IMG/VR virus record: IMGVR_UViG_3300031774_000017
Coordinates: 1 to 56,867 of that record
Strand: one strand, 5' to 3'
Length of the DNA: 56,867 nucleotides
DNA from: a virus
Taxonomy: Duplodnaviria; Caudoviricetes
Shown here: piece after piece, positions 1 through 38,775 of the stretch
Position numbering within the stretch: the first letter of the stretch is position 1
How the letters are laid out: the number at the start of each line of letters is the position of its first letter
The notes under the pieces: generated by a model
What the model was told of the DNA's origin: nothing
The model's database searches: none
The model's input: only the letters and a program-made list of their open reading frames with translations
Translations under genes and position numbers: made by a program

Positions 1-23
1 TATTTATTTTCCATACTTTTTTT

Positions 24-64
24 ATTTATTATATTATCTTTTATTTATATAATTAGTAACGTAT
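24..64 (-). promoter_or_regulatory. Putative phage early promoter, copy 1 (minus strand ATACGTTAC-N16-AGATAATATAATAAAT)
   Basis: Boxes atttattatattatct (24-39) and gtaacgtat (56-64) recur with identical spacing at 366-406; lies just upstream of a minus-strand ATG at 14-12. Confidence 0.55.
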
Positions 65-79
65 TTTTATATTTTATTT

Positions 80-286
80 TTAATATAATATATTTGAATT
101 TATATTATTTTTATTTATAAAACTTAAACCTTTATAATTAAATTCTACTATATTATTATCTTTTATATAATTTTTAATATTTAGTAAATCATTTATTTTA
201 AAACCTATAAATGTTTTATTTTTTATTTTTAATTTTTTAGTATTTAATATTTTAGTTGTATAATGTTTAGTATATAATTTTTGCAT
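80..286 (-). CDS. Small hypothetical protein (68 aa, K/N/I-rich)
   Basis: ORF track; sits downstream of promoter-like copy 2; low complexity. Confidence 0.4.
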   Translation of the reverse strand: MQKLYTKHYTTKILNTKKLKIKNKTFIGFKINDLLNIKNYIKDNNIVEFNYKGLSFINKNNINSNILY

Positions 287-365
287 ATTATTATTTTTTA
301 TTTAATTTTTATATTTTATTTTTTTTATTTTATTTTAAATATTTTATTTTATATTTATTTTTTTA

Positions 366-406
366 ATTTATTATATTATCTATTTTATATATAGTTTGTA
401 ACGTAT
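366..406 (-). promoter_or_regulatory. Putative phage early promoter, copy 2
   Basis: atttattatattatct (366-381) and gtaacgtat (398-406), same spacing as copy 1. Confidence 0.55.
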
Positions 407-848
407 ATTTATAAATTATATTAAAATTATTATATATTCAACAAATATGTCACATATTGAATATTTTGCACTATAATATAATATATACTAAATATAATTT
501 AAAATATATTTAAATATTATATATTTACTAAATATAATATAATTTATATAAAGTAAATAATATTAAATATTAATTATTAATGAAAATAAGTACATATATA
601 GTTGGAAATTACATTATTTGTAATAAAAATGTATATTTACCAATATATTAACAATATATAAGTATATTTATTAAATATAATACAAAGTATTGATTATTAA
701 GTTATTATATTAATAATACATTGTAATATATTCAACAATATATAGAAAACATTGTATATAATTCAAAAAAATGTACGTTTTATTGTCAAATATGGGGTGT
801 TTTATAAAATGACTTTCATAATTGACTGGCAATCAAGTACATATGTGT

Positions 849-867
849 GAACCCAAAGGTTCTTTTT
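849..867 (+). terminator. Small hairpin plus T-tract, terminator-like
   Basis: GAACC-CAAA-GGTTC followed by TTTTT. Confidence 0.3.
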
Positions 868-954
868 ACGCAATACTTTAATTTAATTGAATCAACTATT
901 TATTAAATAACATTAAAGACAGTGTTTATGTTAGAATTTGGTTACGATGATACC

Positions 955-1287
955 ATGAATCAACGACGTCCGAACTCACTCACAGGTACACCCCTTATGA
1001 AGCGATCTAAGCCGCCTGCCCCTTCCAAGAAGAAATCGCTAGGCTACTATAATAAAGCCAATAAGACCGGCACGGGTGCTAAAGCAGGTGGAGGTATGAG
1101 TCAAAAGGGCGTCAACAAATACAAGAAAGATAATCCTGGTAGTAAGCTTAAGACTGCGGTTACCACGCCGCCAAGTAAATTAAAGAAAGGCAGCAAAGCC
1201 GCTAAACGCAGAAAATCGTTTTGTGCTAGATCTAAGAGTTGGACCTCAGAAAGAGGTAGAGCAGCTAGAAGACGTTGGAACTGTTAA
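955..1287 (+). CDS. Small highly basic protein (DUF6321-like phage family)
   Basis: C-terminal AAKRRKSFCARSK...RAARRRWNC motif recalled from a common uncultured-phage family; ATG 955 preferred over GTG 922. Confidence 0.7.
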   Translation: MNQRRPNSLTGTPLMKRSKPPAPSKKKSLGYYNKANKTGTGAKAGGGMSQKGVNKYKKDNPGSKLKTAVTTPPSKLKKGSKAAKRRKSFCARSKSWTSERGRAARRRWNC

Positions 1288-1294
1288 AAAAAAA

Positions 1295-1525
1295 ATGAAA
1301 AAAATAATTGTTATCTTACTGTTAATTATAAGTTACTCCTGTGCTTCCATCAAAGGCCAGGCATATATAGATGTTAATGAAAATATGGATTTTGAACCAA
1401 ATGAAGATGTTAGATTCAGAACTAGGTTTAAAGTCGGTTATAAAATATATATAGGAGAAAAGAAAACATTGTTTGAAAAAAAGAAAAAGCAAAATGAATA
1501 TAGGATACCCGGATACAAAAAATAA
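1295..1525 (+). CDS. Small lipoprotein (76 aa)
   Basis: MKKIIVILLLIISYSC type II signal peptide with lipobox Cys; ATG at 1295 within ORF 1223..1525. Confidence 0.65.
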   Translation: MKKIIVILLLIISYSCASIKGQAYIDVNENMDFEPNEDVRFRTRFKVGYKIYIGEKKTLFEKKKKQNEYRIPGYKK

Positions 1526-1751
1526 AAAAGGAAGCGGTGGGCCTTTACTTAATACTAACCCTCCTGGAGAAGCTGTAGCACAGGGAATGATTTCAGGTAT
1601 GGCACCTATGATTCCAATAAAACCTAACTTGTTCAAAAAAGAGGGATTAAAAACCACTATTAAGGATAAGACACGTAAAAAACCAAATGTGCCTCCTAGA
1701 ATGAATTATAATTTGGACGTAAGAAAAACGCCAACAATAAGACAAACATAG
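1494..1751 (+). CDS. Hypothetical basic protein
   Basis: ORF in tightly packed operon; ATG at 1494. Confidence 0.65.
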   Translation: MNIGYPDTKNKKGSGGPLLNTNPPGEAVAQGMISGMAPMIPIKPNLFKKEGLKTTIKDKTRKKPNVPPRMNYNLDVRKTPTIRQT

Positions 1752-8881: not shown

Positions 8882-11005
8882 ATGGCAAAAATCAGTACAT
8901 ATACTATAGACTCTACAATAGAAGGAGATGATAAACTATTAGGTACTGACTCTGCATCCACCTCAGCATTAGCAACTAGGAATTATACAATAGATAGTTT
9001 AAAAGCATATATTAATGGTAATCAGCCTGGTAATATTACAGATGAAATACCATTAGGATTTTTTCTATCTGTAAATAGAGAAGGTACCGCATATGAAAGA
9101 GCTTTAGTTAGAACTTTAGCTGGATCTACATTAAATAATGTGGTATTAAAAAGTGCTACCGTTAATACAGGGTGTGATGTATTTCTTAATACATTAGGAT
9201 CAGGTCAAGTATTTTTAATAATAAGAGATTATAACAACGGGCAATTTGCTGTTGATTATGATTTAGCAGATTTTGCAACTAATTCAGCAACATGGTCTGG
9301 TACAGTTGGTGGTAATCCACATTCAGGTACAATTACATCATTTAATGCACCGGATTTTTCAAATGCAAGTCCAGAGCCTAACTCATCACAATATGTAACA
9401 GTTGGTGGTAACAAATATACAGATTGGTGTTTTAATGTAACACTGGGTTCAGGACAAACATATACAGGTGGGCAAGTAGCTTTTACAGAATTTACATTTC
9501 TTACAGGTTCTACACAAATTGAAACACAAGCTATTGGTACTTTAAAGATTACTAGAAATTTAGAAGTGCCTGATGGTGATGTAACAATAGGTACACAATC
9601 ACCTTTAACAGACCCTAGAAATTTAACTGTATATGGTGATATACAATTACCAACCTCTGAAAGCAGGATAAAATTTGGAGGTAGTACAAACAATGTTTTA
9701 ATGAGTACCGATGGTAATGATCTTACGGTATCTGGTACTGGTACTGGTAAAAATTTAGTTACAAATTCAACTAGATTTACTCAAGACATTGTAAAAGATA
9801 CAAATGCTACATCTACAGATGGTAGAACTATTATGGGTCAAAATACCTTTACTGCTATCAACACAGATGGAACTAGAGGTGTTCTTTCAAACTCAGGTGT
9901 ACAATTACAAGATTCAAGTGGTAATGCTTTATCACAACAGCAAGTATCTGGTAATGCAACACAAGGAGGATTAACAAATCAAGGATATTTAACTTCACTT
10001 AAAGTAGATAATAATTGGTTTCAACTACCAGCACTTAGCTCAGGTGTAGCGGAAGCTTTGCCTGGACTTAGCGAAACTTTAGCTGGACCAACAGGCACAA
10101 TAACTACAGGCCGTTTCTTTTACGGTATTCAAAATGCTGCAGGAGCTTTATTTCAAACAGCATCTTCACCTGCTAGTTTAACTACAGGGGAATCTATCGG
10201 TGCTAATATAACTTCAATAACCGTCGCGTCTGGTAATAGGACAGATTTTGATTCATTGTTTAGTAATATACCAGCGGGTCAAAAATTATATTTTGTTGAA
10301 AGTACATATACAACTCCTTTTCCTTCTGCAGGTGGTCAAATACTTGATCAATCTGTAAATATATATTTGGTGGTTTCATATGATACAGGTACATATATTG
10401 CAACATTTGGTAGACAAGGATATGGTACTTTAAATGTATCTACAAGTACATTTAATATAGATTCAGAAACTGTAAAATTAAATACTATACCACAAGCTTC
10501 TAAATCTAATTATTTATTTTATGATACCGCAACTAAAGCAGTATCTCATAATTCTTTGAATATATTAGCTTCAGCTAATGGTGCAACATATGATTACGGT
10601 GGTAATGTAGATGTTCCAGTAACTTCTATAACTTTTGAAAATCTTCAAATTACAGCACCTGCCAATGGACAAGTTGTATTAAAACAAGGTTATTATTATG
10701 GAGGTGCATATACAAATAGTTTTGTAGCTGTGGACTGGTATCATTATATTTTAGATAATATATCTGCTGATAAAACAGTAACTTTACCAGTGGGTGCTGC
10801 TTGTAGTAGTATTAGATTTACAAATATGTCTTCACTAAATTCAAGTGGAGTATATACACCTTCATCTTTTACGTGGACAATAAACCCAAATGGGTCAGAA
10901 AAAATAATGAGATCTACATCACTTGTGCTTGATGAATCAACAGCTTCATTTGAGCTGTTTTATTCAGATGCAAGTAATGGTTGGATCGTAAATGGAATAA
11001 GCTAA
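8882..11005 (+). CDS. Tail fibre/spike protein (707 aa)
   Basis: N-terminal MAKISTY...DKLLGTD anchor shared with 13675 gene; beta-rich body; C-terminal TVTLP...FELFYSDASNGW domain. Confidence 0.75.
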   Translation: MAKISTYTIDSTIEGDDKLLGTDSASTSALATRNYTIDSLKAYINGNQPGNITDEIPLGFFLSVNREGTAYERALVRTLAGSTLNNVVLKSATVNTGCDVFLNTLGSGQVFLIIRDYNNGQFAVDYDLADFATNSATWSGTVGGNPHSGTITSFNAPDFSNASPEPNSSQYVTVGGNKYTDWCFNVTLGSGQTYTGGQVAFTEFTFLTGSTQIETQAIGTLKITRNLEVPDGDVTIGTQSPLTDPRNLTVYGDIQLPTSESRIKFGGSTNNVLMSTDGNDLTVSGTGTGKNLVTNSTRFTQDIVKDTNATSTDGRTIMGQNTFTAINTDGTRGVLSNSGVQLQDSSGNALSQQQVSGNATQGGLTNQGYLTSLKVDNNWFQLPALSSGVAEALPGLSETLAGPTGTITTGRFFYGIQNAAGALFQTASSPASLTTGESIGANITSITVASGNRTDFDSLFSNIPAGQKLYFVESTYTTPFPSAGGQILDQSVNIYLVVSYDTGTYIATFGRQGYGTLNVSTSTFNIDSETVKLNTIPQASKSNYLFYDTATKAVSHNSLNILASANGATYDYGGNVDVPVTSITFENLQITAPANGQVVLKQGYYYGGAYTNSFVAVDWYHYILDNISADKTVTLPVGAACSSIRFTNMSSLNSSGVYTPSSFTWTINPNGSEKIMRSTSLVLDESTASFELFYSDASNGWIVNGIS

Positions 11006-15397: not shown

Positions 15398-17791
15398 ATG
15401 GGTATTAAGTTTCAATCACCGATAGATCTTTCGGCACATAGAGCTATACGATATAATAGCGCTGCCCAGACTTTAGTAGTTACAGTCGCAACTAAAACTG
15501 CAGCTCACCCAGAATATGGAAATGGAAGTACAGATGGTTATGTTGTAGATGGTATTGAAGGTCCTTATTTAGAATTTACACCTGGTAATACATATAAGTT
15601 CGATCAATCGGATAATTCAAATAGCAATCATCCACTTAGATTTTATGAAGATGCTGCAAAAACAACAGCATATACCACAGGTGTAACAACTAATGGTGTA
15701 CCTGGACAATCAGGTGCTTATACCCAAATAGTACCAACAACTTCTGTACCTCCCATATTATATTATCAATGTAGTAGTCATTCCTTAATGGGAAGTTACG
15801 TTAAATTTGGTACAGGATCACAGGGTGATACATATACATTAAGTGCTAGCCAAGATGGCGATAATGTTGATATATTATTAGATGCAGGTACTGGTACTGA
15901 TTCAACTGTACAATTAACAGCTGGTTCAAATGTAACACTTACTAGAAACAATGCTCAAGAAGTAACTATTGCTGCATCAGGAGGTGGTGGTGGCACAGGT
16001 ACAGTAAGTGTACAAAAAAATGTATACACTGGTAATGGTTCAACAACAACATTTAATACAAGTACAGCTATTGTTAATGAAAATAATGTACAGGTATATA
16101 TAGATGGTGTTTATCAATCTAAAGATAATTATACTACAAGTGGAAGTACAGTTACAATGGCAACTGCTCCTGGAAATGGTACATCTGTTGAGCTTATTCA
16201 TTTTATTACTTTAAGTGGTAATGTTGTAGCGGTCGATACTTTTAATGCTAATGGTGTAACAACTACTTTTAATCTTACTTTATCTGTTAGTGATAAAAAC
16301 AATACTCAAGTATATATAGACGGTGTTTATCAAGATAAATCCACATACTCAGTTAATGGTAGTAATATAACTTTTTCCCCAGCCCCTGGTAATGGAGCTA
16401 AAGTAGAAGTAGTACAATTAAAACCTTCAACTTCATCAACTGGTATAAATTCAAATGTTTTTACAGGAACCGGAAGTGCTGTTGATTTTACATTATCACA
16501 ATCACTTACAAATGAAAATAATACATTTGTATTTATACAAGGTGTATATCAAGAAAAATCAACATATTCTATAGCAGGTACAACTTTAACATTTAGTACT
16601 GCACCTCAAAATGGTTATAGTATTGAAGTAATGGCTTTTGATAGTATAACAATTGGTAATCAATCTAGTCCTGGCACTGATTGGCAAACCGCTATAAAAA
16701 CTTCAAATTTTACAGCTGCTGCTGGAGATGGATACTTTGTTAATACAACTTCAAGTTCAGTAACTGTCACTTTACCTACACCTCCTACTGTTGGGAATGA
16801 GGTAGTAATACAAGACTATGCTGGAACATTTGATACTAATGAATTAATATTAGTTAGTAGTGATAAAATACAAGGTAGAGACACTAATGCTAAGTGTATT
16901 ATTGAAAATGCAACTGTAAGATTAATATATCAAGATACAACTCAAGGTTGGACTGCAGATAATATAGTAGATATTCCTCTTACACGAACTGCAAACTTTT
17001 TAGTTGTAGCCGGTGGCGGTGGTGCCGGAAGAAATGACACATACTACGGTGGTGGTGGTGGTGGTGGAGGTTTTAGATCTTCAACAGACGGTAGAGGAGG
17101 AGGACAATCTTCTGATACAGCATTACAATTAACACCATCAACTAATTATACTGTAACTGTAGGTGGTGGTGGTGCAGAAGGTACAAGTGGTACAGATAAA
17201 GGAACTACAGGTTCAGATTCTGTTTTTGGTACTATAACTTCTAAAGGTGGAGGTGGTGCTGGTGCTTATGATGCAACAGGTAACGCTTTAGATGGTGGCT
17301 CCGGTGGTGGAGGTGGTGGTAATGACCAAGCAAATACAGGGGGTAGTGCTTTAACTTCTCCTGCTATATCAGGATATGATGGTGGTGATGTTGCTGCAGG
17401 ATCTGGTGAAGGTGGTGCTGGTGGTGGTGGTGCTGGTAGTGCTGGTGTAAATGCAACTACTACAAGTGGGACAAATGGAGGAGCTGCAAAAGCTGCAACT
17501 ATTACAGGCTCTACTGTATATTATGCTGCCGGTGGTGGTGGTAAAAGAGGTTGGCAAGGAAGTCATGGATCTGCAGGCTCAAACGCAGTTGGAGGTGCTA
17601 ACTCTGGTGATGGAGGTACTCCACCTGGAGCTACTTCTGCTGCAAACGGTCAATCAGGTAAAGTAATATTAAAATATGACAGTTCTTACACACTTACAAT
17701 TGGTGCAGGATTAACCAGTTCAACTGCTACATCTGGTTCTGATAAAATAACAACATTTACAGCAGGAACAGGAAATATATCAATTAATTAA
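15398..17791 (+). CDS. Multidomain tail protein: cupredoxin-like N-domain, 3 tandem ~75-aa repeats, Gly-rich C-domain
   Basis: NHPLRF...YYQCSSHSLMG; three VYIDGVYQ/VFIQGVYQ repeats; LVVAGGGG...SGKVILKY Gly-rich domain. Confidence 0.75.
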   Translation: MGIKFQSPIDLSAHRAIRYNSAAQTLVVTVATKTAAHPEYGNGSTDGYVVDGIEGPYLEFTPGNTYKFDQSDNSNSNHPLRFYEDAAKTTAYTTGVTTNGVPGQSGAYTQIVPTTSVPPILYYQCSSHSLMGSYVKFGTGSQGDTYTLSASQDGDNVDILLDAGTGTDSTVQLTAGSNVTLTRNNAQEVTIAASGGGGGTGTVSVQKNVYTGNGSTTTFNTSTAIVNENNVQVYIDGVYQSKDNYTTSGSTVTMATAPGNGTSVELIHFITLSGNVVAVDTFNANGVTTTFNLTLSVSDKNNTQVYIDGVYQDKSTYSVNGSNITFSPAPGNGAKVEVVQLKPSTSSTGINSNVFTGTGSAVDFTLSQSLTNENNTFVFIQGVYQEKSTYSIAGTTLTFSTAPQNGYSIEVMAFDSITIGNQSSPGTDWQTAIKTSNFTAAAGDGYFVNTTSSSVTVTLPTPPTVGNEVVIQDYAGTFDTNELILVSSDKIQGRDTNAKCIIENATVRLIYQDTTQGWTADNIVDIPLTRTANFLVVAGGGGAGRNDTYYGGGGGGGGFRSSTDGRGGGQSSDTALQLTPSTNYTVTVGGGGAEGTSGTDKGTTGSDSVFGTITSKGGGGAGAYDATGNALDGGSGGGGGGNDQANTGGSALTSPAISGYDGGDVAAGSGEGGAGGGGAGSAGVNATTTSGTNGGAAKAATITGSTVYYAAGGGGKRGWQGSHGSAGSNAVGGANSGDGGTPPGATSAANGQSGKVILKYDSSYTLTIGAGLTSSTATSGSDKITTFTAGTGNISIN

Positions 17792-19135
17792 TAATTATGG
17801 GACATTACGCTTTTTTAAATATGCAAAATATCGTTACTGAAGTAATAACAGGTAAAGACGAAACTGATGGTCCTACAAACTGGGAAATACATTATGGCAA
17901 TCTTCGTGAACAAGTTTGTAAAAGAACATCATATAATACTTTAGGTGGGGTGCACTCACAAGGAGAAACTCCTTTTAGAAAAAATTATGCAGGAATTGGG
18001 TACACTTATGATTTTGGTAGAGATGCTTTTATTCCACCTAAGCCATTCCCTAGTTGGACACTAGATTCAAATACATGCTTATGGGTAGCCCCTGTGGAAA
18101 TGCCATCTGATGGTAAATTATACACATGGGACGAAGAAAATCAAATTTGGGTAGAAGATGGCACAAACTAAAGTAAAATATCCAGGTTTAATAGATTTTG
18201 AAACTGTAGACTGCGAATATTTAGTCGTTGCAGGTGGTGGCGGTGCTAGTGTAAATAGAGGTACAGGTGGTGGCGGAGCAGGAGGTTTAAGAACTGCTTT
18301 TGGATCAACATCTGGTGGTGGTGCTAGTGCTGAAACTAATTTAACTCTTGATTTAAGTACAAATTATACAGTAACCGTTGGAGGTGGAGGTGCTGCTGCA
18401 GCTAGTAATGCTGCTGCTGGCGGTAATGGTTCTAATTCTGTATTTAGTACAATAACCTCTACTGGTGGTGGAGGTGGGCCCTCGGGTAGTTCAACAGGCG
18501 GTAATAATGGTGGTTCTGGTAGTGGAGGTGGTTCCGTGTCAAGCACTAAACATGCACCCGGTTCAGGAACTGCTAATCAAGGATATGCGGGTGGAGTTTA
18601 TACTGCTCCCGGAGGAAATGATGAAGGTGGCGGTGGAGGTGGCGGTGCTGGTGCAGTCGGTAGTGCAGGTACAACAATAGGTGGTAATGCATATGGTGGG
18701 GCCGGTGGTGTAGGCTTAGCTGTAAATATATTAAATACTACAAATGCAGGAACAGCATCTGTTGGTGAAGTAAATGGCGGTTCAGTATTTTTTGCCGGCG
18801 GTGGCGGTGGTGGATTTATGGATTACGGTCAAACCATTCCTTCAAATAGAGGTGGTGATGGTGGTACAGGCGGCGGCGGTAATGGTGGTGGTGGTCCATC
18901 ATCAATAACATTTGCAGCAGCAGCAGGAACCGTAAACACAGGAGGTGCTGCAGGTGGTGCTGGAGCTAATGTTAGTACTGGTTCAAAAGCAGGAGGCTCA
19001 GGTGTTGTAATATTAAGATACCCTTCAAGCTTTACATTAACAGCAGGAGCAGGATTAACACAATCATCAGGATCTCCTTTTACAGAAAGTGGATCTAAAA
19101 TATCTGTATTTACAGCAGGAACAGGAAATATATCA
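17755..19135 (+). repeat. 28-bp identical direct repeat at 17755-17782 and 19108-19135
   Basis: atttacagcaggaacaggaaatatatca at the 3' ends of two Gly-rich genes. Confidence 0.85.
17797..18171 (+). CDS. Small partner of Gly-rich protein (MGHYA...FRKNYAGIG...DAFIPPKP), copy 1
   Basis: Paralog of 20427 gene; follows a Gly-rich gene. Confidence 0.8.
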   Translation: MGHYAFLNMQNIVTEVITGKDETDGPTNWEIHYGNLREQVCKRTSYNTLGGVHSQGETPFRKNYAGIGYTYDFGRDAFIPPKPFPSWTLDSNTCLWVAPVEMPSDGKLYTWDEENQIWVEDGTN

Positions 19136-19537: not shown

Positions 19538-20425
19538 ATGTTAAGAAGAAAAATTTTAGCTCCAAGATCTTACGCTCCCTCAGGATATACATTTAATTTT
19601 CTTATGGTAGCAGGTGGTGCTGGAGGTGGTGGTGGTGCTACAAATGCTGGAGGTGGTGGTGGCGGTGGCGCTGGCGCAGCGTATGAAGCAACAAGCGGTA
19701 CAATAGCAGTAGGAACAGTATTAGGAATAACAATAGGTGCTGGTAGTGCTGGAGGTCCAAATAGTTATACAAATGGATTAACATCAAATGGAGGAGATAC
19801 TGTTATTACAAATATTGATGGAAGTGGCGGTAATTATACTGTGGATGGTGGTGGTGGCGCTGCAACAGGAAATCAAGGACCTGCTGGTGGAAACGGAGGC
19901 TGTGGTGGAGGTGGTCATGCAAATTTTGGTGGTGGCTCTGCTACAGGATTATCTGCTGGCGGAAGCGGAGGTACAGGAACAGGTGTAGTAAATTCCGGCG
20001 GTGGTGGTGGTGACGGAGGAAACGGTGGCAATGGTGGTAGTGGCACTTATAGTACAGGTGGTGCTGGGGGTGTTGGTACCCAAAGTAGTATTACAGGAAC
20101 AGCGCTTTATTATGCAGGTGGTGGCGGTGGTGGCGGTTATTATACTGCAGGTGTAGCATCTGGAGGTTCTAGTGTAGGCGGAAATTCAGGTGGACAAATG
20201 AGTCAACCAACTGCTGGTACAGTTAATACCGGTAGTGGGGGTGGTGGTAGAAACAACTGGAATAATCCAGGTGTTGGAGCATCCGGAGCATCAGGTGTTG
20301 TTGTTTTAAAAATACCAGATGCAAACTATTCAGGTACAACCACCGGTAGCCCTACTGTAGATACTTCAAGTGTAAGTGGGTTTACAATTTTAAAATATAC
20401 CGGTAGCGGTAGTTATACAGCTTAA
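19538..20425 (+). CDS. Glycine-rich domain protein (295 aa)
   Basis: FLMVAGGAGGG...SGVVVLKIP...YTGSGSYTA. Confidence 0.8.
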   Translation: MLRRKILAPRSYAPSGYTFNFLMVAGGAGGGGGATNAGGGGGGGAGAAYEATSGTIAVGTVLGITIGAGSAGGPNSYTNGLTSNGGDTVITNIDGSGGNYTVDGGGGAATGNQGPAGGNGGCGGGGHANFGGGSATGLSAGGSGGTGTGVVNSGGGGGDGGNGGNGGSGTYSTGGAGGVGTQSSITGTALYYAGGGGGGGYYTAGVASGGSSVGGNSGGQMSQPTAGTVNTGSGGGGRNNWNNPGVGASGASGVVVLKIPDANYSGTTTGSPTVDTSSVSGFTILKYTGSGSYTA

Positions 20426-20426
20426 T

Positions 20427-20804
20427 ATGGCACATTTTGCAAAAATTAATTCAAATAATATTGTTGAAATAGTACATGTAGTAAACAATGAAGTTATTAA
20501 AAAAGAAGATGGTACAGAAGATGAATCAAAAGGTAAAGAATTTTTAGATTCATTATTTGGTTCTGCTACATGGGTACAAACTTCTTATAATAATAACTTT
20601 AGAAAAAATTATGCTGGAGTTGGTTATACATATGATATTACACGAGATGCTTTTATACCACCCAAACCTCATGATTCGTGGGTTTTAAATGAAAATACAT
20701 GCCAATGGGAAGCTCCTATAGAATTTCCTGATGTAAATAATAGGTATAATTGGAATGAAGAAAATCAAGAATGGGATTATGTAGGCCCTGCTTTATTTGA
20801 ATAA
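20427..20804 (+). CDS. Small partner of Gly-rich protein (MAHFA...FRKNYAGVG...DAFIPPKP), copy 2
   Basis: Paralog of 17797 gene. Confidence 0.8.
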   Translation: MAHFAKINSNNIVEIVHVVNNEVIKKEDGTEDESKGKEFLDSLFGSATWVQTSYNNNFRKNYAGVGYTYDITRDAFIPPKPHDSWVLNENTCQWEAPIEFPDVNNRYNWNEENQEWDYVGPALFE

Positions 20805-21216
20805 TATGAAAAAAAAATTTAAAGATACTGTAGTTGGAAAATTTTTATTAAATAAAATTCCAACTGTAGTTGGATCAATAGCTAGTGGTACACCAGCTGG
20901 CAGTATTATAGAAGCTATAATAGGTAGCAGTGAAATGTCTGATGGCGATAAAGAAATTGCATTAGAAAAACTAAAACTTGAAAGAGCTGAAATAGATGGA
21001 ACAACAGAAAGATGGGTTGCAGATGCCAGCTCAGGAGCGTGGCTTGCGGCTAATGTTCGTCCATTAACATTAATATTTTTAACAGTAAGCTATGTAATTG
21101 GGTGGTACTTAGGTTATCCACTTGATTCAATAACCGGTTTATTAACAATAGTAATCGGAGGCTATTTCGGATCACGAGGTGTTGAGAAAGTCTTTGGAAA
21201 CAAAATGCACAAATAA
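20797..21216 (+). CDS. Holin (3TM/GTA-type holin-like)
   Basis: RWVAD...WLAANVRPLTL, TM helices, GGYFGSRGVEK; upstream of endolysin. Confidence 0.75.
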   Translation: MNNMKKKFKDTVVGKFLLNKIPTVVGSIASGTPAGSIIEAIIGSSEMSDGDKEIALEKLKLERAEIDGTTERWVADASSGAWLAANVRPLTLIFLTVSYVIGWYLGYPLDSITGLLTIVIGGYFGSRGVEKVFGNKMHK

Positions 21217-21217
21217 A

Positions 21218-21367
21218 ATGCAAGACTTAAGAATTTATGGTATAAGTTTAGGAGGCTTCACCTTTTCTATAATGCCAGATATAAATCCGCTGCTACAAAC
21301 AGTAGTATTATTATTAACTATAATATATACCATAATAGGTATAAAAAACAAATTAAATAATAAATAA
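21218..21367 (+). CDS. Small membrane protein (49 aa), lysis-cassette associated
   Basis: ATG at 21218 in ORF 21179..21367; LLQTVVLLLTIIYTIIGI TM. Confidence 0.6.
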   Translation: MQDLRIYGISLGGFTFSIMPDINPLLQTVVLLLTIIYTIIGIKNKLNNK

Positions 21368-21368
21368 A

Positions 21369-21719
21369 ATGCCTTTAAAATACTTTAATGAATCTGAATT
21401 TAATCAGTATAAAATGATGGATAAAAAGCTTCTTAAAATGCTAGATGATTTACGAGAAGCTTATGGATCACCTATAAAAATTACATCTAGTTATAGAAGT
21501 CCGGATCATCCAATAGAAGCAAAGAAAAAAGCACCAGGTGAACATGCTTACGGTGCTGCTGTTGATATTGCAAGTATTGGTGGTGAAACAACATTTAAAT
21601 TAGTTAAAGCTGCTATGGACGTCGGCTTTACAAGAATAGGAGTTAGTAGAAAAAATAATTTTGTTCATGTGGGTATCGGTTACCCGGATGCTCCACCTAT
21701 AACTCTTTGGACATATTAA
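21369..21719 (+). CDS. Endolysin, peptidase M15A family
   Basis: ITSSYRSPDH, EHAYGAAVDI, FVHV zinc-ligand motifs. Confidence 0.9.
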   Translation: MPLKYFNESEFNQYKMMDKKLLKMLDDLREAYGSPIKITSSYRSPDHPIEAKKKAPGEHAYGAAVDIASIGGETTFKLVKAAMDVGFTRIGVSRKNNFVHVGIGYPDAPPITLWTY

Positions 21720-21729
21720 ATAAAATTAA

Positions 21730-21951
21730 ATGGCAAAATTAATTAGAAAAATTAGTATTGGCACTGATTATAAAAATGAAGCAATGCATTACTCTGTAGG
21801 CCAAGAAGTTTATGGAGGACATACAATTTGTGACATTTTAGAAGAAGAAGGTGCCTATAAAATTTATATTACAAAAAATAAAGAAGTATTACCGTGGAAA
21901 CACTTTAATGGTAATATGGCTGTATCTGTTGAATATAACTTAGATTATTAA
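21730..21951 (+). CDS. Conserved hypothetical protein (73 aa)
   Basis: IRKISIGTDYKNEAMHYSVGQ; coupled to next gene. Confidence 0.8.
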   Translation: MAKLIRKISIGTDYKNEAMHYSVGQEVYGGHTICDILEEEGAYKIYITKNKEVLPWKHFNGNMAVSVEYNLDY

Positions 21952-22541
21952 TGCAATCTTTATTTGAATATATTATATCTACTGAAAATCGCTACAACAA
22001 CATTATTGATGTTGAGGGTAAGGAATTAGTCGTTAATACAGAAGTTACTGAAAGAGATTATATGTTTGTTAATCGTATAGGTAAAATAGTAAAGTTACCA
22101 TTATATAATAATTCAGAACTAAAAGAAAACGATGAAGTTATTGTGCATCATAATGTTTTTAGAAGATGGATTGATGTAGAAGGAATTCAAAAAAATTCTT
22201 CAAGCTTTTTAAATGAAAATGAATATTTAGTTTCTGAGGATCAAATATTTGCTTATAAAAGAAATAATAAATGGAAAAGTTTACCTAATTTTTGTTTTGT
22301 AAAACCTTTATATAAAAAAAATAAATGGGCTCTTAAAACAGACGAAAATCTTTTAGGTATACTTACATATAGTAATAGTAAATTAAACCAATTAGGAGTG
22401 TCTATTGGAGACGTGGTGGGCTTTACACCTGATTCAGAATATGAGTTTAATATTGAAGGAGAAAAATTATATCGTATTTTTTCACATCACATAACAATAA
22501 AATATGGAACAAAAGAGAGACAAGGTTATATTAGCTGCTGA
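21951..22541 (+). CDS. Putative tandem GroES-like protein
   Basis: Two GroES-like beta units (LKENDEVIVHHNVF; VSIGDVVGF...YEFNIEGEKLYRI). Confidence 0.5.
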   Translation: MQSLFEYIISTENRYNNIIDVEGKELVVNTEVTERDYMFVNRIGKIVKLPLYNNSELKENDEVIVHHNVFRRWIDVEGIQKNSSSFLNENEYLVSEDQIFAYKRNNKWKSLPNFCFVKPLYKKNKWALKTDENLLGILTYSNSKLNQLGVSIGDVVGFTPDSEYEFNIEGEKLYRIFSHHITIKYGTKERQGYISC

Positions 22542-22752
22542 AAAAGCTTTATTAGAACTTGAAAAAGTAATCAGACAAAATATAGATCTTAATGAACTTG
22601 ATCCTGAAAAAGCTAAAACTGCAGCACAAGCTAAATGGGTTGCAATTGAAGATTCTTTAAAAATTATAGATAAAATTGAAGAAATATCTGATAAGAAAAA
22701 AGATAACAAAAAATCAAAAGCTTTTTTGGGTGTTGAAAATAGAATTAAATAA
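22504..22752 (+). CDS. Putative terminase small subunit
   Basis: Small helical protein directly upstream of and coupled to TerL. Confidence 0.5.
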   Translation: MEQKRDKVILAAEKALLELEKVIRQNIDLNELDPEKAKTAAQAKWVAIEDSLKIIDKIEEISDKKKDNKKSKAFLGVENRIK

Positions 22753-24986
22753 TGTATAAACAAACTTTATATAAAATACATACAGATCATTTAGATAAAA
22801 AATATACCAAAAATTTAAATAAAAATAAAAAATTTAAATATGGATATAATAGTGATTTAGATTGTGTTATTATTAGTAAGGATGGTACATTAGGTGATAT
22901 ATATGAAATACAAGGTCTTAAGGTAGGTATACCTCAAACCCCTAAAAAAATACACGGTAAAGATTTAAAAAAAGAAAAACAAGTATTTATAAGAAGGGAA
23001 AGACCACAATCGTTAACAAGAATAAAAACATTATATGATTTTCAAAGCTATACTGAAGATATTAAAGACCAATATTATAGTTACATCGATAATGAGTTTA
23101 ATTATCGTAATGATGGTTATTGGTTCATGTGCAACGGTACCCCGTGCTACCTTACAGGATCGCACTATATTTATCTCAACTGGACTAAAATCGATGTGGG
23201 CTCCCCAGACTTTCGACATGCAAACAGGATATTTTTCTACTTTTGGGAAGCATGCAAGGCTGATAGCAGATGCTATGGGATGTGCTACCTTAAGAATAGA
23301 CGGTCTGGTTTCTCCTTTATGGCGTCATCAGAATGTGTTCATCAGGCTACAACTTCAAAAGACTCTAGGTTTGGGATCTTATCTAAGAGTGGAGCAGACG
23401 CTAAGAAGATGTTCACGGATAAGGTGGTCCCAATCTCAACTAATTACCCGTTCTTTTTTAAACCAATACAGGATGGTATGGAACGCCCAAAGACGGAACT
23501 CTCGTACAAAGTACCATCAAGAAGGCTCACGAGGAATACGATACGAGCCACCAGCCCCGCCTCCTCTGAGATACAGGACGGATTGGACACCACAATTGAC
23601 TGGAAGAACACGGGGGACAATTCATACGACGGGGAGAAATTACAACTCCTCATCCACGACGAATCGGGTAAATGGGAGAGGCCGGACAACATCCTCAATA
23701 ACTGGAGGGTTACAAAAACGTGCCTCCGCCTCGGGGCGAAAGTAGTTGGCAAATGTATGATGGGATCCACTTCTAATGCGTTAGACAAAGGTGGTGATAA
23801 ATTTAAAAAATTATATTATAATTCAGATGTTACAAATAGAAATCGCAATGGCCAGACTACAAGTGGATTATACTCTTTGTTCATACCTATGGAATGGGGT
23901 TTCGAAGGATTTATTGATAAGTATGGATACCCTGTCTTCGATACTCCATCAGAACCGGTTGAAGGAATTGATGGCGAACTCATATATACGGGAGTCCTTG
24001 AACACTGGGAAAATGAAGTTGAGGGGCTAAAAAAAGACAGCGATGCTTTAAATGAATATTATAGACAATTTCCAAGATCAGAAAAGCATGCATTTAGAGA
24101 TGAAACTTTAAATTCTTTATTTAATTTAACTAAAATTTATGAACAAATAGATTATAATGAAGAAATGGAATTTAAAGGTCATGTAGTAAGAGGTGCTTTT
24201 TCATGGCAAAATGGTATAAAAGATACTAAAGTAATATGGACACCAACACAAAATGGTAGATTTAAAATATCGTGGATACCACCAGACCAATTACAAAATA
24301 ATGTTATTGAAAAAAATGGTATAAAATATCCTGGTAATGATGGATTGGGTGCTTTTGGGTGCGATCCTTATGATATATCAGGAACAGTTGGGGGTGGAGG
24401 ATCAAATGGATCTTTACATGGATTAACCACTTTTACAATGACTAGTGACGTACCTAATACAAAATTCTTTTTAGAGTACGTAGCAAGACCTCAAACAGCT
24501 GAAATATTTTTTGAAGATGTTTTAATGGCATGCATATTTTATAGTATGCCTATATTGATTGAAAACAATAAACCAAGATTATTATATCATTTAAAAAGAA
24601 GAGGGTATAGGGGTTTTTCTATGAATAGACCTGATAAATTAAAAGGTGCTTTATCTAAAACTGAATTAGAATTAGGTGGTATACCTAATAGTTCTGAAGA
24701 TATTAAACAAGCACATGCATCTGCTATTGAATCGTACATTGAAGAATATATTGGACGAAATGACGATTCATATGGTAATATGTATTTTCAAAGAACATTA
24801 GAAGACTGGGCAAGATTTGATATTTCACGCAGAACATCTTTTGATGCATCTATAAGTAGTGGTTTAGCCATAATGGCTTGTAGAAAACATTTATATAAAC
24901 CAAGCTCAGATAGAACAGTTAAAAAATTAGATTTTGAATTTTCACGATACAAAAATGAAGGGTATCAAAGCGAGTTAATAAAATAA
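22752..24986 (+). CDS. terL: Terminase large subunit
   Basis: LKNRRSGFS Walker A-like, LLIHDESGKW Walker B, GST motif III, GCDPYD nuclease, followed by portal. Confidence 0.92.
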   Translation: MYKQTLYKIHTDHLDKKYTKNLNKNKKFKYGYNSDLDCVIISKDGTLGDIYEIQGLKVGIPQTPKKIHGKDLKKEKQVFIRRERPQSLTRIKTLYDFQSYTEDIKDQYYSYIDNEFNYRNDGYWFMCNGTPCYLTGSHYIYLNWTKIDVGSPDFRHANRIFFYFWEACKADSRCYGMCYLKNRRSGFSFMASSECVHQATTSKDSRFGILSKSGADAKKMFTDKVVPISTNYPFFFKPIQDGMERPKTELSYKVPSRRLTRNTIRATSPASSEIQDGLDTTIDWKNTGDNSYDGEKLQLLIHDESGKWERPDNILNNWRVTKTCLRLGAKVVGKCMMGSTSNALDKGGDKFKKLYYNSDVTNRNRNGQTTSGLYSLFIPMEWGFEGFIDKYGYPVFDTPSEPVEGIDGELIYTGVLEHWENEVEGLKKDSDALNEYYRQFPRSEKHAFRDETLNSLFNLTKIYEQIDYNEEMEFKGHVVRGAFSWQNGIKDTKVIWTPTQNGRFKISWIPPDQLQNNVIEKNGIKYPGNDGLGAFGCDPYDISGTVGGGGSNGSLHGLTTFTMTSDVPNTKFFLEYVARPQTAEIFFEDVLMACIFYSMPILIENNKPRLLYHLKRRGYRGFSMNRPDKLKGALSKTELELGGIPNSSEDIKQAHASAIESYIEEYIGRNDDSYGNMYFQRTLEDWARFDISRRTSFDASISSGLAIMACRKHLYKPSSDRTVKKLDFEFSRYKNEGYQSELIK
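23035..23745 (+). CDS. Putative overprinted lipoprotein in +1 frame of terL (236 aa)
   Basis: Long stop-free +1 frame; basic N-region, hydrophobic IIVTSIMSLIIVMMV, lipobox IGSC; coincides with shifted codon usage in terL. Confidence 0.5.
   Translation: MIFKAILKILKTNIIVTSIMSLIIVMMVIGSCATVPRATLQDRTIFISTGLKSMWAPQTFDMQTGYFSTFGKHARLIADAMGCATLRIDGLVSPLWRHQNVFIRLQLQKTLGLGSYLRVEQTLRRCSRIRWSQSQLITRSFLNQYRMVWNAQRRNSRTKYHQEGSRGIRYEPPAPPPLRYRTDWTPQLTGRTRGTIHTTGRNYNSSSTTNRVNGRGRTTSSITGGLQKRASASGRK
23791..24030 (+). CDS. Second candidate overprinted ORF in +1 frame of terL (79 aa)
   Basis: Follows the 236-aa ORF in the same frame within the codon-shifted patch. Confidence 0.3.
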   Translation: MVINLKNYIIIQMLQIEIAMARLQVDYTLCSYLWNGVSKDLLISMDTLSSILHQNRLKELMANSYIRESLNTGKMKLRG

Positions 24987-36925: not shown

Positions 36926-37164
36926 TGGCAAACTTAGTAACATTTCCTTTTCAAAATAAAGAAGGAAAATATTTTGCACCTATTAGTTGTTCAGAACCAG
37001 ATTACATTGTTGTAAATGGAACTATACAAGCTAATGGAGACAAAATAACAAGTGGATTAAAAGGAGCATATGCTACTGTTAAATTAACTTTACCAGTAGC
37101 TAATGCTTCTACAAAAAAAGAACTTTTTGCTTTAAATACTTTAGCAGTAAATTCTTCAAGTTAA
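36925..37164 (+). CDS. Small protein resembling the detached C-terminus of the muzzle protein
   Basis: FQNKEGKYF...GLKGAYATVKL...KELFAL...SS; TAATG coupling. Confidence 0.7.
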   Translation: MANLVTFPFQNKEGKYFAPISCSEPDYIVVNGTIQANGDKITSGLKGAYATVKLTLPVANASTKKELFALNTLAVNSSS

Positions 37165-37188
37165 ATACAATCAATTAAATTTTATTTT

Positions 37189-37638
37189 ATGTTAAGAGTA
37201 AGAAAATTATTAGAATCAGATTGGAAATTTTTACCAACCTGGTGGGACAAATATGATCAAGAACCTTGGATTCATACAGAAAATTTTAGAGATATTATGC
37301 CTGGATCTTTTTTAATAGGCCAATACAATACTAAAAGAGCTGGATTAGGTGGCTTTATGGTGTGTAAAGATAATCATCCAATTGCGGCAATGTGGCTTGG
37401 ATTAACAAATTCACATTGTGCATTACCAACTGCCGCAATATCAGATCCTGATTATAGAGATACAGACAGAAAAGAAGCTATACAATTATTAGTAAATTTT
37501 GTTACAGATTTTGCTAAAGATTTAGGATTTAAATATTCATTTGGCTGGGCTCAAGAAGGGTACATGCTTGATTATTATTTAAATGCAGGATATGAAAAAT
37601 GGGATAAACCATCTTATGAACTCATAAAAAAATTATAA
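37189..37638 (+). CDS. GNAT-fold-like protein in virion module
   Basis: VRKLLESDW, LLVNFVTDFAKDLGFK, YYLNAGY pattern. Confidence 0.55.
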   Translation: MLRVRKLLESDWKFLPTWWDKYDQEPWIHTENFRDIMPGSFLIGQYNTKRAGLGGFMVCKDNHPIAAMWLGLTNSHCALPTAAISDPDYRDTDRKEAIQLLVNFVTDFAKDLGFKYSFGWAQEGYMLDYYLNAGYEKWDKPSYELIKKL

Positions 37639-38766
37639 ATGGGAGGAAAAAAGAAACGAAATAGATACGCTGGTAGACAAGCTTTAGCAAACCAAGAAGG
37701 TATATTAGCTGATCAAGCTGCAGCTCAAGAATTATATGATGCAGACCTTTCAGCATTAAGAGATGCTAGTCAGGTAACTGATTTTTATGAAAATTTAAAT
37801 TTTTCATCTATTGATCCTGACTCAATGCGAAAAGCGGAATTGGACGAGATGAAATTAGGTACTTTAGGTGCACAAAGAGTAGCTAATGTTGAAGGATACG
37901 ATGCTGCTCAAACAAATGTAGCTGGCCTTGCTAGAGGCGCTGATACTGGGTTAAGTAATGTATTTAATAATCTGCAAGTTTCAACAGCAGGTGCTGAACT
38001 TGAAGCTCAAGAAGCAGACCAAGCATTAGCTGCTTCTCAAGATATGATGATGCAAATGGGCGGAGGTGGTGGTGCTACAGCCTTAGCACAGCAGGCTGCA
38101 AGATCAAAAGCTGGTATTAGAGCTAGTATTGATCAGCAAGTAAAAGCTAATGAAATGATGAGAGCTCAAGGTGAGCAATCTTTACAAAGAGATTTACTTG
38201 CACAAGGAAATTTAGCTTCTCAATTTGATTTAGGCCAAGCACAATTTAATGTAGGACAAGACAATAGAGCAAGGCAATTTAGTGCACAAGCAAGAAATCA
38301 AGCTGAAATGTTTAATGCAGGACAAGCTAATCAAATGAATTTAACTAAGTTTGGTGCAGAAAATAGAATGAATCAATTCAATGCTGCAGCTGCTAATAAT
38401 GCTTTTGCAAATCAAGCTAATGCAATAAATCAATCTATTGCTAAAAATGCTGAAATGCAAAATCAATTTAATTTAGCTCAAGCAGGTGGAAGACTTACAA
38501 CACAATCAAGCCAATACGATGCTTTAATGGGTATACAAGAAATATCCCAAGCACAATTAAATGATGCAGATAGAAGAGCTGGCGAAAACCAAGCCACTAT
38601 AGATGTTGCTAGAATGTCTGGTATGAATAAAGATGGTAGTTATACTAAAAAATGGTATGAAAAATTAGGTAATACTGTTGGGAAAGCAGCACTTATTGGA
38701 ACTGGAGCCGCTTTTGGTGGAATTGGTGGTGCACTAATTGCTAATGAAGCATTAAAAAAAGGATAA
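37639..38766 (+). CDS. Internal virion/ejection protein (A/Q/N-rich)
   Basis: GGGGATALAQQA, QFN/QAN repeats, Gly-rich hydrophobic C-terminus. Confidence 0.65.
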   Translation: MGGKKKRNRYAGRQALANQEGILADQAAAQELYDADLSALRDASQVTDFYENLNFSSIDPDSMRKAELDEMKLGTLGAQRVANVEGYDAAQTNVAGLARGADTGLSNVFNNLQVSTAGAELEAQEADQALAASQDMMMQMGGGGGATALAQQAARSKAGIRASIDQQVKANEMMRAQGEQSLQRDLLAQGNLASQFDLGQAQFNVGQDNRARQFSAQARNQAEMFNAGQANQMNLTKFGAENRMNQFNAAAANNAFANQANAINQSIAKNAEMQNQFNLAQAGGRLTTQSSQYDALMGIQEISQAQLNDADRRAGENQATIDVARMSGMNKDGSYTKKWYEKLGNTVGKAALIGTGAAFGGIGGALIANEALKKG

Positions 38767-38775
38767 TTAAAAAGT

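What the first reader, a model, noticed from the sequence alone, without database searches (positions are those of the whole stretch)
23035..23745. 236-aa lipoprotein-like gene nested in the terminase ATPase domain; candidate missing spanin
Seen: +1 ORF with basic N-region, hydrophobic stretch and lipobox IGS-C (Cys32, or Cys13 from ATG 23092), and an R/P/T-rich tail (YEPPAPPPLRYR). It spans the Walker A/B region, where terL is most GC-rich. Established: lambda Rz1 is an outer-membrane lipoprotein overprinted in +1 frame. The lysis cassette 1.3 kb upstream has a holin and endolysin but no obvious spanin. Inference: an outer-membrane lysis or superinfection-exclusion lipoprotein hidden in terL.
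Basis: partly seen in the sequence, partly recalled or inferred. Interest (0 to 1): 0.8.

Follow-up and report, generated by a model that had tools for sequence, protein, structure and literature searches.

The report
Hidden second gene inside phage terminase

Summary
The ORF 23035..23745 (+, 236 aa) exists, in the +1 frame of terL (22752..24986). It is very unlikely to be chance.

- **Codon signature:** over the ORF, terL third-position GC is 0.51 against 0.15 elsewhere. First and second positions are unchanged.
- **Stop depletion:** +1 stops are 0, against 13.2 expected from terL's usual codons and 4.6 from permuting the local codons (P=0.0005). No other frame deviates.
- **Conservation:** an open frame of 100 or more codons is kept in 52 of 82 terL relatives (66-86% identity). 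It has been lost or swapped at least 9 times. Cultured relatives lack it.
- **Product:** an orphan protein, with a hydrophobic N-terminal helix followed by about 200 residues predicted disordered (pI 11.7, net charge +29).
- **Conservation type:** composition and openness are conserved; individual residues are not.
- **Lipobox:** a canonical lipobox occurs only in the window's clade (16 of 16, against 1 of 35 in the other clade). Its Cys is forced by a terL Met-Cys pair.
- **Spanin features:** it has no i-spanin partner, no C-terminal membrane segment and no short Pro-rich domain.

Verdict: a probable overprinted accessory gene. Its function is open, its lipoprotein status is unproven, and a spanin role is unsupported. 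There is no direct evidence of expression.

The parts
23035..23745 (+). Nested +1-frame ORF, 236 aa (stop TAG at 23743-23745): the candidate overprinted gene
   Evidence: Stop depletion. Conserved in relatives.
22752..24986 (+). terL (terminase large subunit, 744 aa), the older host gene
   Evidence: phrog_6681, E 8.8e-175. 87 phage records match by tblastn.
23035..23130 (+). N-terminal 32 codons: Lys-rich start, an 18-residue hydrophobic stretch, and IGS-C (lipobox-like). Predicted as a helix
   Evidence: Helix 2-30 / 2-32 at pLDDT 62-87. Pattern found in 16 of 16 clade-A sequences. Not above the synonymous null in this clade.
23092..23094 (+). Alternative in-frame ATG (Met20), which would give a 13-residue signal with no basic residue
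23109..23741 (+). GC3 island: terL third codon positions are 0.4-0.8 GC (terL codons 120-330). They encode the Arg/Thr/Ser/Gly-rich, predicted-disordered part of the +1 protein
   Evidence: pI 11.7 and net charge +29. pLDDT below 50.
20797..21719 (+). Upstream lysis cassette (context only): holin 20797..21216, 62-aa membrane protein 21179..21367, M15 endolysin 21369..21719

Best explanation
This is a genuine overprinted protein-coding gene, read in the +1 frame inside terL. It occurs in one family of uncultured marine podophages whose cultured relatives infect Flavobacteriaceae. Shown: selection keeps the +1 frame free of stops. It also shifts terL's synonymous third positions (which are the second positions of the +1 codons) from A/T to G/C. 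That turns a frame that would be hydrophobic and stop-rich into an Arg/Thr/Ser/Gly-rich hydrophilic protein. Shown: the frame was present at the root of the family, and was later lost or exchanged by recombination in several lineages. It is therefore accessory. Inferred: translation starts at the internal ATG 23035 on the late terL mRNA. Inferred: the product has one N-terminal hydrophobic helix (a signal peptide, a lipoprotein signal in the window's clade, or a signal anchor), followed by about 200 residues of disordered polycation whose last 40-100 residues are dispensable. My best guess for its action is a membrane-targeted late protein whose cationic tail binds anionic envelope components. 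My odds: about 0.8 that it is translated and selected; about 0.5 that it is envelope-targeted; about 0.2 that it aids outer-membrane disruption at lysis (working like a cationic disruptin, not as a spanin family member); about 0.15 superinfection exclusion; about 0.15-0.2 a cytoplasmic nucleic-acid binder. The confidence given for this explanation refers to its core claim: a selection-maintained, translated, overprinted accessory gene with this anatomy.
For: (1) GC3 over the ORF is 0.51 against 0.15 in the rest of terL. GC1 and GC2 are unchanged. The same holds in all 18 ORF-bearing sequences tabulated, while 5 AT-rich ORF-lacking relatives have GC3 of 0.12-0.25 in both parts.
(2) The window has 0 +1 stops. 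Expected: 13.2 (0 of 1000 redraws reach 0), or 4.6 when only the local codons are permuted (P=0.0005 in 20000; 0.0045 and 0.001 in 80- and 40-codon blocks). All 18 bearing sequences have P<=0.008; the 6 lacking ones match their null.
(3) Natural control: MW202828 has GC3 of 0.41 throughout yet 13 stops, against a null of about 14.
(4) Codon choice depends on context. A-ending Leu/Ile/Val codons are followed by A or G in 0 of 7 cases inside the ORF, against 26 of 46 in terL downstream of it and 9 of 16 upstream.
(5) Only the +1 frame deviates. The +2 frame and all three antisense frames equal their nulls.
(6) Open-frame lengths are bimodal across the 82 terL sequences: 27 have 195 or more codons, 20 have 150-194, 5 have 100-149, and 30 have 57 or fewer. 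An independent 60-kb relative also has the ORF and the island.
(7) On the tree, at least 267 (clade A) and 239 (clade B) synonymous changes occurred in the region. About 15 stop-creating events were expected in each and none was retained.
(8) The 3' edge of the GC3 island follows the stop codon in variants ending at terL codons 330, 324, 296 and about 229.
(9) Synonymous identity is higher in the region than in the rest of terL for bearing pairs (0.24 vs 0.15, and 0.41 vs 0.33). It is equal for lacking pairs.
(10) The RNA is not unusually structured (z = +1.57), and there is no Rfam match.
(11) An ATG followed by Lys-rich and hydrophobic segments is present in 48 of 51 bearing sequences. AlphaFold2 gives an N-terminal helix and a low-confidence remainder.
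Against: There is no direct evidence of translation.
Residue-level conservation of the +1 protein (mean 0.57) is no higher than that of the untranslated virtual frame in ORF-lacking relatives (0.62). The constraint is therefore on openness and composition only.
The excess synonymous constraint is modest, and the pairs compared are not independent.
GC3-edge tracking would also arise if the GC3 island were the cause of the open frame rather than its result.
The bearing sets were chosen for being open, which is an ascertainment bias.
The three conserved Cys are forced by terL Met-Cys and Met-Phe pairs, and the window-clade hydrophobic stretch is not above its null.
At least 9 losses or swaps show the gene is dispensable.
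No family, fold or stand-alone homologue was found.
Confidence: 0.75

Rival explanations
1. The open frame is an untranslated by-product. A GC3-rich allele of this terL segment spreads by recombination for reasons unrelated to the +1 frame, and the higher GC simply removes most stops.
For: The segment is mosaic. L065 and L079 are 92% identical in the region against 79% elsewhere; L024 and L068 are 94.6% against 74.7%. The L019 region groups with ORF-lacking alleles, while the rest of its terL groups with L065. The +1 residues are no better conserved than a virtual frame. The model has low confidence.
Against: Keeping the local GC3 and permuting codons still predicts 4-8 stops where 0-3 are seen. 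MW202828, with GC3 of 0.41, has 13 stops. Stop avoidance depends on the next codon's first base. Only the +1 frame is affected. No RNA structure or RNA family explains the island. About 15 stop-creating changes were expected in each clade and none was retained.
Confidence: 0.1
2. One reading: it is the phage's missing spanin, an outer-membrane lipoprotein of the o-spanin or u-spanin type that completes lysis.
For: It has a lipobox-like IGS-C after a Lys-rich and hydrophobic N-terminus in 16 of 16 clade-A sequences. It is on the same strand as the holin and endolysin, 1.3 kb downstream. No recognisable spanin lies in the cassette. Lambda Rz1 is a precedent for a nested +1 lipoprotein (recalled). 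The host is probably Gram-negative, judging by the cultured relatives.
Against: There is no i-spanin partner, no C-terminal membrane segment, and a 204-aa mature part with only 3.8% Pro. The canonical lipobox is found in 1 of 35 clade-B sequences. The Cys is forced by terL. The gene has been lost or swapped at least 9 times, with no compensating gene in the 3 kb upstream of a sister pair. Spanins were annotated in only two of the new flavobacterial phages described in PMC8776804 (passages read), so the lack of one here is not unusual. A separate canonical lipoprotein ORF exists at 1292..1525.
Confidence: 0.1
3. It is a cytoplasmic polycation that binds nucleic acid, for example tethering or condensing DNA during packaging or being packaged with it. 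On this reading the N-terminal helix is a peripheral or membrane tether.
For: Net charge is +29, pI 11.7 and Arg 11.9%, in a genome of about 31% GC. It is predicted disordered. It is co-encoded with the packaging ATPase. A very basic domain is expected to stay on the cytoplasmic side (positive-inside rule, recalled).
Against: The Lys-rich segment before the hydrophobic stretch favours an N-in, C-out orientation (sequence reading). In clade B the hydrophobic stretch is only 11-14 residues, which is signal-peptide length, and it is more hydrophobic than chance (P 0.002-0.1). There is no DNA-binding family or fold.
Confidence: 0.15
4. The +1 frame is reached by programmed ribosomal frameshifting from terL. 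The product would then be a terL N-terminal domain fused to the +1 polypeptide, not a separately initiated protein.
For: Database proteins P0042, P0071 and P0077 join the terL N-terminus to the +1 frame.
Against: Other chimeras run the opposite way (P0068, P0084, P0072) or switch several times (P0088), and the junctions differ. That pattern fits indel errors. In clade A, +1 stops sit at terL codons 87 and 91 just before a conserved ATG. The required shift is +1 or -2, and no conserved slippery site was seen.
Confidence: 0.03

Closest known systems
Lambda Rz1 (o-spanin nested in Rz); description recalled, not taken from a call
   Same: A same-strand gene lying wholly inside another gene in the +1 frame. 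It is expressed late and has a lipoprotein-type N-terminus (here only in the window's clade).
   Different: The host gene here is terL, not an i-spanin. The product is 236 aa against about 60. It is Arg/Thr/Ser-rich and predicted disordered rather than short and Pro-rich. It has no partner protein, and it is patchy across close relatives.
PhiX174 lysis protein E (overprinted in scaffold gene D); description recalled
   Same: Overprinted in the +1 frame inside an essential morphogenesis gene. An N-terminal hydrophobic helix is followed by a basic region whose distal part is dispensable (natural truncations). It evolves fast and has no relatives.
   Different: E has 91 aa and is the sole lysis gene of a phage that has no holin or endolysin. 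This phage has both. No Pro is seen in the window's hydrophobic helix. MraY inhibition could not be tested.
T7-group gp19.2 / gp19.3, small ORFs inside the terminase gene 19
   Same: The only precedent I found for an annotated ORF nested inside a large-terminase gene. In PMC4925675 (table passage read), a 41-aa ORF with pI 12.1 at 37752-37877 lies inside the gp19 gene (37103-38833) and is labelled gp19.2-like. It too is very basic and of unknown function.
   Different: That ORF is 41-85 aa against 236. The phage family and host are unrelated. No evidence of selection or function is reported in the passages I read. Homology was not tested here.
Cationic 'disruptin' of spanin-less phages (phiKT gp28); recalled, and my search listed no phage paper on it among its 15 rows
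   Same: A strongly cationic late protein proposed to breach the outer membrane in place of spanins. This is the working model closest to the lysis reading.
   Different: As recalled, disruptin is about 56 aa, amphipathic-helical, encoded in the lysis cassette and lacks a signal sequence. The protein here is 236 aa, has an N-terminal hydrophobic helix and is nested in terL.

Membership tests
Overprinted (de novo, nested) viral gene | The ORF lies wholly inside an older gene, in another frame | tested here: met
   23035..23745 lies inside terL 22752..24986 in frame +1.
Overprinted (de novo, nested) viral gene | Narrower phylogenetic range than the host gene | tested here: met
   Absent from elemoE, phi13:2 and MW202828 terL (longest +1 open stretch 39-54 aa; no GC3 island). 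Present in 52 of 82 family members.
Overprinted (de novo, nested) viral gene | Statistical signature of selection on the second frame | tested here: met
   Stop depletion against two nulls, specific to the +1 frame, and seen on the tree. The synonymous-rate drop is modest. There is no residue-level excess.
Overprinted (de novo, nested) viral gene | Biased composition and high predicted disorder in the new protein | tested here: met
   pI 11.7; Arg 11.9%, Thr 11.0%. pLDDT 41.7 and 43.7, with residues from about 34 onward mostly below 50. The general expectation comes from the abstract starts of PMC6195259 and 10.1101/229690 in the listing.
Overprinted (de novo, nested) viral gene | The product is expressed | not testable with these tools
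RNA runs hold part of the stretch but cannot resolve frames.
o-spanin (Rz1-like) | Signal peptidase II signal with a lipobox Cys | tested here: inconclusive
   The PROSITE-like pattern (recalled) is met in 16 of 16 clade-A sequences but only 1 of 35 in clade B. The Cys is forced by terL Met-Cys. SignalP/LipoP were not available.
o-spanin (Rz1-like) | A cognate i-spanin gene (N-terminal membrane segment plus coiled coil) that overlaps or adjoins it | tested here: not met
   The enclosing gene is terL. The neighbours are an 82-aa protein and the portal.
o-spanin (Rz1-like) | A short, Pro-rich mature periplasmic domain | tested here: not met
   The mature part is 204 aa, and the protein has 9 Pro in 236 residues.
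u-spanin (T1 gp11-like) | An N-terminal lipoprotein signal plus a C-terminal membrane segment | tested here: not met
   The C-terminal half is hydrophilic (gravy -0.73 for the mature part). No helix or hydrophobic run is predicted after residue 142.
Single-gene lysis protein of the phiX174 E type | An N-terminal membrane helix that alone causes lysis by blocking cell-wall synthesis | not testable with these tools
   The helix is predicted. Its activity is unknown. The phage already has a holin and an endolysin.

The most novel reading that the evidence does not exclude
The nested gene encodes a new kind of envelope-breaching lysis factor for phages of Bacteroidota. It would be a lipid- or helix-anchored, intrinsically disordered polycation, exported late, that destabilises the outer membrane in place of spanins. 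It arose de novo inside terL and is traded between phages as a recombining terL allele.
Probability: 0.12. Interest if true: 0.85.

Novelty: new variant of a known kind. Interest (0 to 1): 0.62.

Why it matters
Long same-strand overlapping genes are well known in small viruses but rarely documented in tailed dsDNA phages, and annotation pipelines discard them.

This case offers a 236-codon gene inside the best-conserved phage gene, with an unusually clean signature: a synonymous-site GC island in an AT-rich genome. It also has natural controls, namely relatives with the same terL protein but without the frame.

If confirmed, it adds a protein to a widespread marine flavophage lineage. At least 14 DNA runs hold 90% or more of the stretch's sampled words; the 20 runs that hold any of it come from 14 studies.

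It also gives a simple recipe for finding other hidden genes: a local jump in GC3 plus frame-specific stop depletion. It shows how a new disordered protein can be born and then shaped mainly by composition. Finally, it makes the question of how spanin-less Bacteroidota phages breach the outer membrane testable with one candidate.

Tried and rejected
- **Family and fold searches on the ORF:** Pfam, PHROGs, NCBIfam and PADLOC gave nothing meaningful (best was PADLOC at E 0.027). A PDB profile search gave E >= 0.084. The ESM Atlas gave a best score of 0.79, below the level that shuffled sequences reach.
- **Search for a stand-alone homologue:** 43 hits and 141 cluster representatives were found, all unnamed and without Pfam domains. 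All seven longer proteins that I read align to the nested ORF. Five of them (P0068, P0084, P0088, P0071, P0072) also contain terL-frame sequence and P0077 has an unmatched 101-residue N-terminal extension; I read these as chimeras with terL. The seventh, P0067, has a 35-residue N-terminal extension. I did not check the genomic context of the rest.
- **RNA-structure explanation:** rejected (z = +1.57; all 20 of 20 shuffles fold at least as well; no Rfam match).
- **Antisense ORFs 23444..23788 and 23031..23219:** these equal their null.
- **Forced stops from terL dipeptides:** almost none (2 of 82 sequences), so terL's protein sequence pays no visible price for the ORF.
- **Compensating gene:** the sister pair L019 (lacking) and L065 (bearing) has the same upstream genes within 3 kb. 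Whole genomes were not compared.
- **Reads:** RNA runs X15-X17 hold 0.41-0.56 of the sampled words.
- **Literature:** searches found no report of a selected gene nested in a terminase gene, apart from the annotated T7-group gp19.2. Supplements were not seen.
- **Not run:** Complex prediction, because no partner was proposed.
Full report
**What is there.** The window is a 56,867-base virus record of about 31% GC. One search lists terL at 22752..24986 (744 aa; phrog_6681, E 8.8e-175). Inside it, one base out of frame, lies an ATG-started ORF at 23035..23745 (236 aa).
- the Lys-rich start and the stretch IIVTSIMSLIIVMMVIG followed by S-C (Cys32);
- the in-frame ATG at 23092;
- the motif YEPPAPPPLRYR at residue 170;
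- a local GC of 0.43-0.51 against 0.17-0.32 around it.

A holin (phrog_3427), a 62-aa membrane protein and an M15 endolysin (PF08291) lie 1.3-2.2 kb upstream on the same strand. By tblastn, terL's cultured relatives are phages of Flavobacterium (68 records), Cellulophaga (15), Tenacibaculum (2) and Maribacter (1), out of 87 records, at 45% identity for the 39 cultured-phage rows listed. The best match overall, at 63%, is the uncultured MW202828. A Gram-negative Flavobacteriaceae host is therefore an inference.

**Is it more than chance?** The GC island is purely synonymous for terL. Third-position GC is 0.51 over the ORF and 0.15 in the rest of the gene, while first and second positions are the same in both (0.40/0.42 against 0.39/0.36).
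- With terL's amino acids fixed and codons drawn from terL's own usage, 13.2 +1 stops are expected. None is seen (0 of 1000 draws).
- Permuting only the synonymous codons actually used in the region, which keeps the high GC3, still predicts 4.6 stops. P(0) is 0.0005 in 20,000 permutations, and 0.0045 and 0.001 when permuting within 80- and 40-codon blocks.
- The avoidance depends on context. Of 7 A-ending Leu/Ile/Val codons in the region, none is followed by a codon starting with A or G, which would make TAA or TAG in the +1 frame. In terL downstream of the ORF 26 of 46 are, and upstream of it 9 of 16 are.
- The +2 frame and the three antisense frames match their nulls.
- The 239-codon open stretch is the longest alternative-frame stretch in the window.
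- The RNA is not unusually structured (z = +1.57), and no Rfam family matches.

**Relatives.** I took 80 IMG/VR loci with terL at 66-86% identity (about 600 exist, and only the best 80 were returned), plus MW202828. I aligned terL, threaded the codons, and read the +1 frame.
- The open stretch through a fixed anchor codon is bimodal. Of 82 sequences, 27 have 195 or more codons, 20 have 150-194, 5 have 100-149, and 30 have 57 or fewer. None falls between 58 and 106.
- All 18 ORF-bearing sequences tabulated carry the GC3 island and have fewer stops than their local-permutation null (P <= 0.008). The six ORF-lacking sequences tested match their null, and five of them have GC3 of 0.12-0.25 in both parts. 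The sixth, MW202828, has GC3 of 0.41 throughout and 13 stops. That shows high GC3 alone does not open the frame.
- Cultured relatives (elemoE, phi13:2) have no island, and their longest +1 open stretch is 39-54 aa.
- A 60-kb relative reached through an unrelated gene also has a 227-codon frame and the island.
- On the tree, at columns where the terL residue is invariant, at least 267 synonymous codon changes occurred among 8 clade-A sequences and at least 239 among 8 clade-B sequences. About 5.8-6.2% of possible synonymous mutations would create a +1 stop, so about 15 such events were expected in each clade. None was retained. Caveats: those sequences were chosen because they are open, and mutation was treated as uniform.

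**What kind of constraint?** In this overlap, the third position of each terL codon is the second position of the +1 codon. Bearing sequences have A/C/G/T of 0.26/0.27/0.25/0.21 there; lacking ones have 0.36/0.13/0.13/0.38. This lowers hydrophobic residues in the +1 product from 44% to 31% and raises small or polar ones from 32% to 45%.
- The 3' edge of the island follows the stop codon in variants ending at terL codons 330, 324, 296 and about 229. This would also happen if the island caused the open frame, so I give it less weight than the permutation tests.
- Synonymous identity beyond chance is higher in the region than elsewhere for bearing pairs (0.24 vs 0.15 at 70-80% terL identity; 0.41 vs 0.33 at 80-90%). 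It is equal for lacking pairs. The effect is modest and the pairs are not independent.
- Individual +1 residues are not better conserved in bearing sequences (0.57) than the same virtual frame in lacking ones (0.62).
- The conserved Cys32, Cys83 and Cys126 are forced by terL Met-Cys or Met-Phe pairs (ATG TGY / ATG TTY read as TGT).

Selection therefore acts on openness and composition, not on specific residues. That is what is expected of a young, disordered overprinted protein. The general expectation comes only from the abstract starts of PMC6195259 and 10.1101/229690 in the listing.

**History.** Fitch parsimony places the ORF at the root of the 81 ingroup tips, with 9 changes. Some of those are allele swaps:
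- L065 and L079 are 92% identical in the region but 79% elsewhere.
- L024 and L068 are 94.6% against 74.7%.
- The L019 region is closest to ORF-lacking alleles, while the rest of its terL is closest to ORF-bearing L065.
- L019 and L065 share 92% of terL residues in the region but only 46% of codons at identical residues.

The gene is therefore accessory and moves with a recombining terL segment.

**The product.** It is 236 aa, with pI 11.7, net charge +29, Arg 11.9% and Thr 11.0%.
- AlphaFold2 with 44- and 66-sequence alignments gives mean pLDDT of 41.7 and 43.7. There is a helix at residues 2-30 / 2-32 (pLDDT 62-87), and almost everything after residue 33 is below 50.
- No family, defence model, solved structure or Atlas cluster matches.
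- The 43 word-index hits and 141 cluster representatives are unnamed. Six of the seven long ones I read look like chimeras with terL (five contain terL-frame sequence, one has an unmatched N-terminal extension), with junctions at different places and in both directions. I read these as indel errors, not programmed frameshifting.

**N-terminus**.
- Clade A: 16 of 16 sequences have ATG, a Lys-rich segment, a hydrophobic stretch and G-S-C, which fits a PROSITE-like lipobox (pattern recalled).
- Clade B: 32 of 35 have an ATG before a Lys-rich segment and an 11-14-residue hydrophobic stretch ending L-I-T-C or I-C-T-C. Only 1 of 35 fits the canonical pattern.
- The hydrophobic stretch lies about 20 residues further downstream in clade B.
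- Against a synonymous-codon null, it is not unusual in clade A (P 0.09-0.55). In all 9 bearing clade-B sequences tested it is more hydrophobic than the null mean (P 0.002-0.10; below 0.05 in 5 of 9), but not in the four lacking ones (P 0.28-0.80).

A signal-like N-terminal helix is therefore probably a real feature. A lipid anchor is plausible only for the window's clade.

**Function.** The spanin reading fails its defining features:
- there is no i-spanin partner;
- there is no C-terminal membrane segment;
- the mature part is 204 aa with 3.8% Pro;
- the gene lies outside the lysis cassette;
- its distribution is patchy, with no compensating gene in the 3 kb upstream of a sister pair.

Lack of a recognisable spanin is not unusual for flavobacterial phages (PMC8776804, passages read). 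The window also has a separate small ORF with a textbook lipoprotein signal at 1292..1525.

What the anatomy suggests is a late, membrane-targeted protein with a long disordered polycationic tail. I rank the possibilities as follows:
- envelope action, either outer-membrane destabilisation at lysis (working like a cationic disruptin) or superinfection exclusion;
- a cytoplasmic nucleic-acid binder;
- an untranslated by-product (about 0.1).

The closest analogues are lambda Rz1 and phiX174 E (both recalled) and the small basic gp19.2-like ORF nested in the T7-group terminase gene (PMC4925675, table passage).

**Limits.** SignalP was not available. Only 80 of about 600 relatives were examined. 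Whole-genome gene co-variation was not done. Paper supplements were not seen.

Noticed in passing
window 1292-1525 (+), within ORF 1223..1525: A small ORF with a textbook lipoprotein signal (MKKIIVILLLIISYS-C) and a mature part of about 60 residues. It has no PHROG or NCBIfam family. Two IMG/VR relatives match at 92% and 61% identity. It overlaps neighbouring ORFs 922..1287 and 1473..1751. It is a better lipoprotein candidate than the terL-nested ORF.
   Followed up: partly
window 1-1000: Extremely AT-rich stretch (14% GC) at the start of the record, with only short ORFs. It may be an end or origin region.
   Followed up: no
window 21179-21367 (+): A 62-aa membrane protein overlaps the end of the holin gene and abuts the endolysin. 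It is conserved in L005 and L007 (57-59% identity) and may be a second holin or an antiholin.
   Followed up: partly
database proteins P0042, P0067, P0068, P0071, P0072, P0077, P0084, P0088: Predicted proteins longer than the nested ORF. Most join terL-frame and +1-frame sequence in either direction, and the junctions differ. This most likely reflects indel errors in metagenome contigs and not a programmed shift.
   Followed up: partly
window 19538-20425 (+) and 17001-19000: A 295-aa Gly-rich protein (runs of GGxGG), preceded by a 2-kb stretch of 43-46% GC. This is the other GC-rich part of the genome.
   Followed up: no
window 49168-49557, 50276-50680, 55604-56026 (all on the minus strand): Same-strand alternative-frame open stretches of 130-141 codons inside minus-strand genes. 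An antisense stretch of 174 codons lies at 9259-9780. None was tested against a null.
   Followed up: no
window 21951-22541 (+): A GroES-like co-chaperonin homologue (phrog_13932, E 3.9e-23) sits between the lysis cassette and terL. It is conserved in the same position in all 15 relatives inspected.
   Followed up: no
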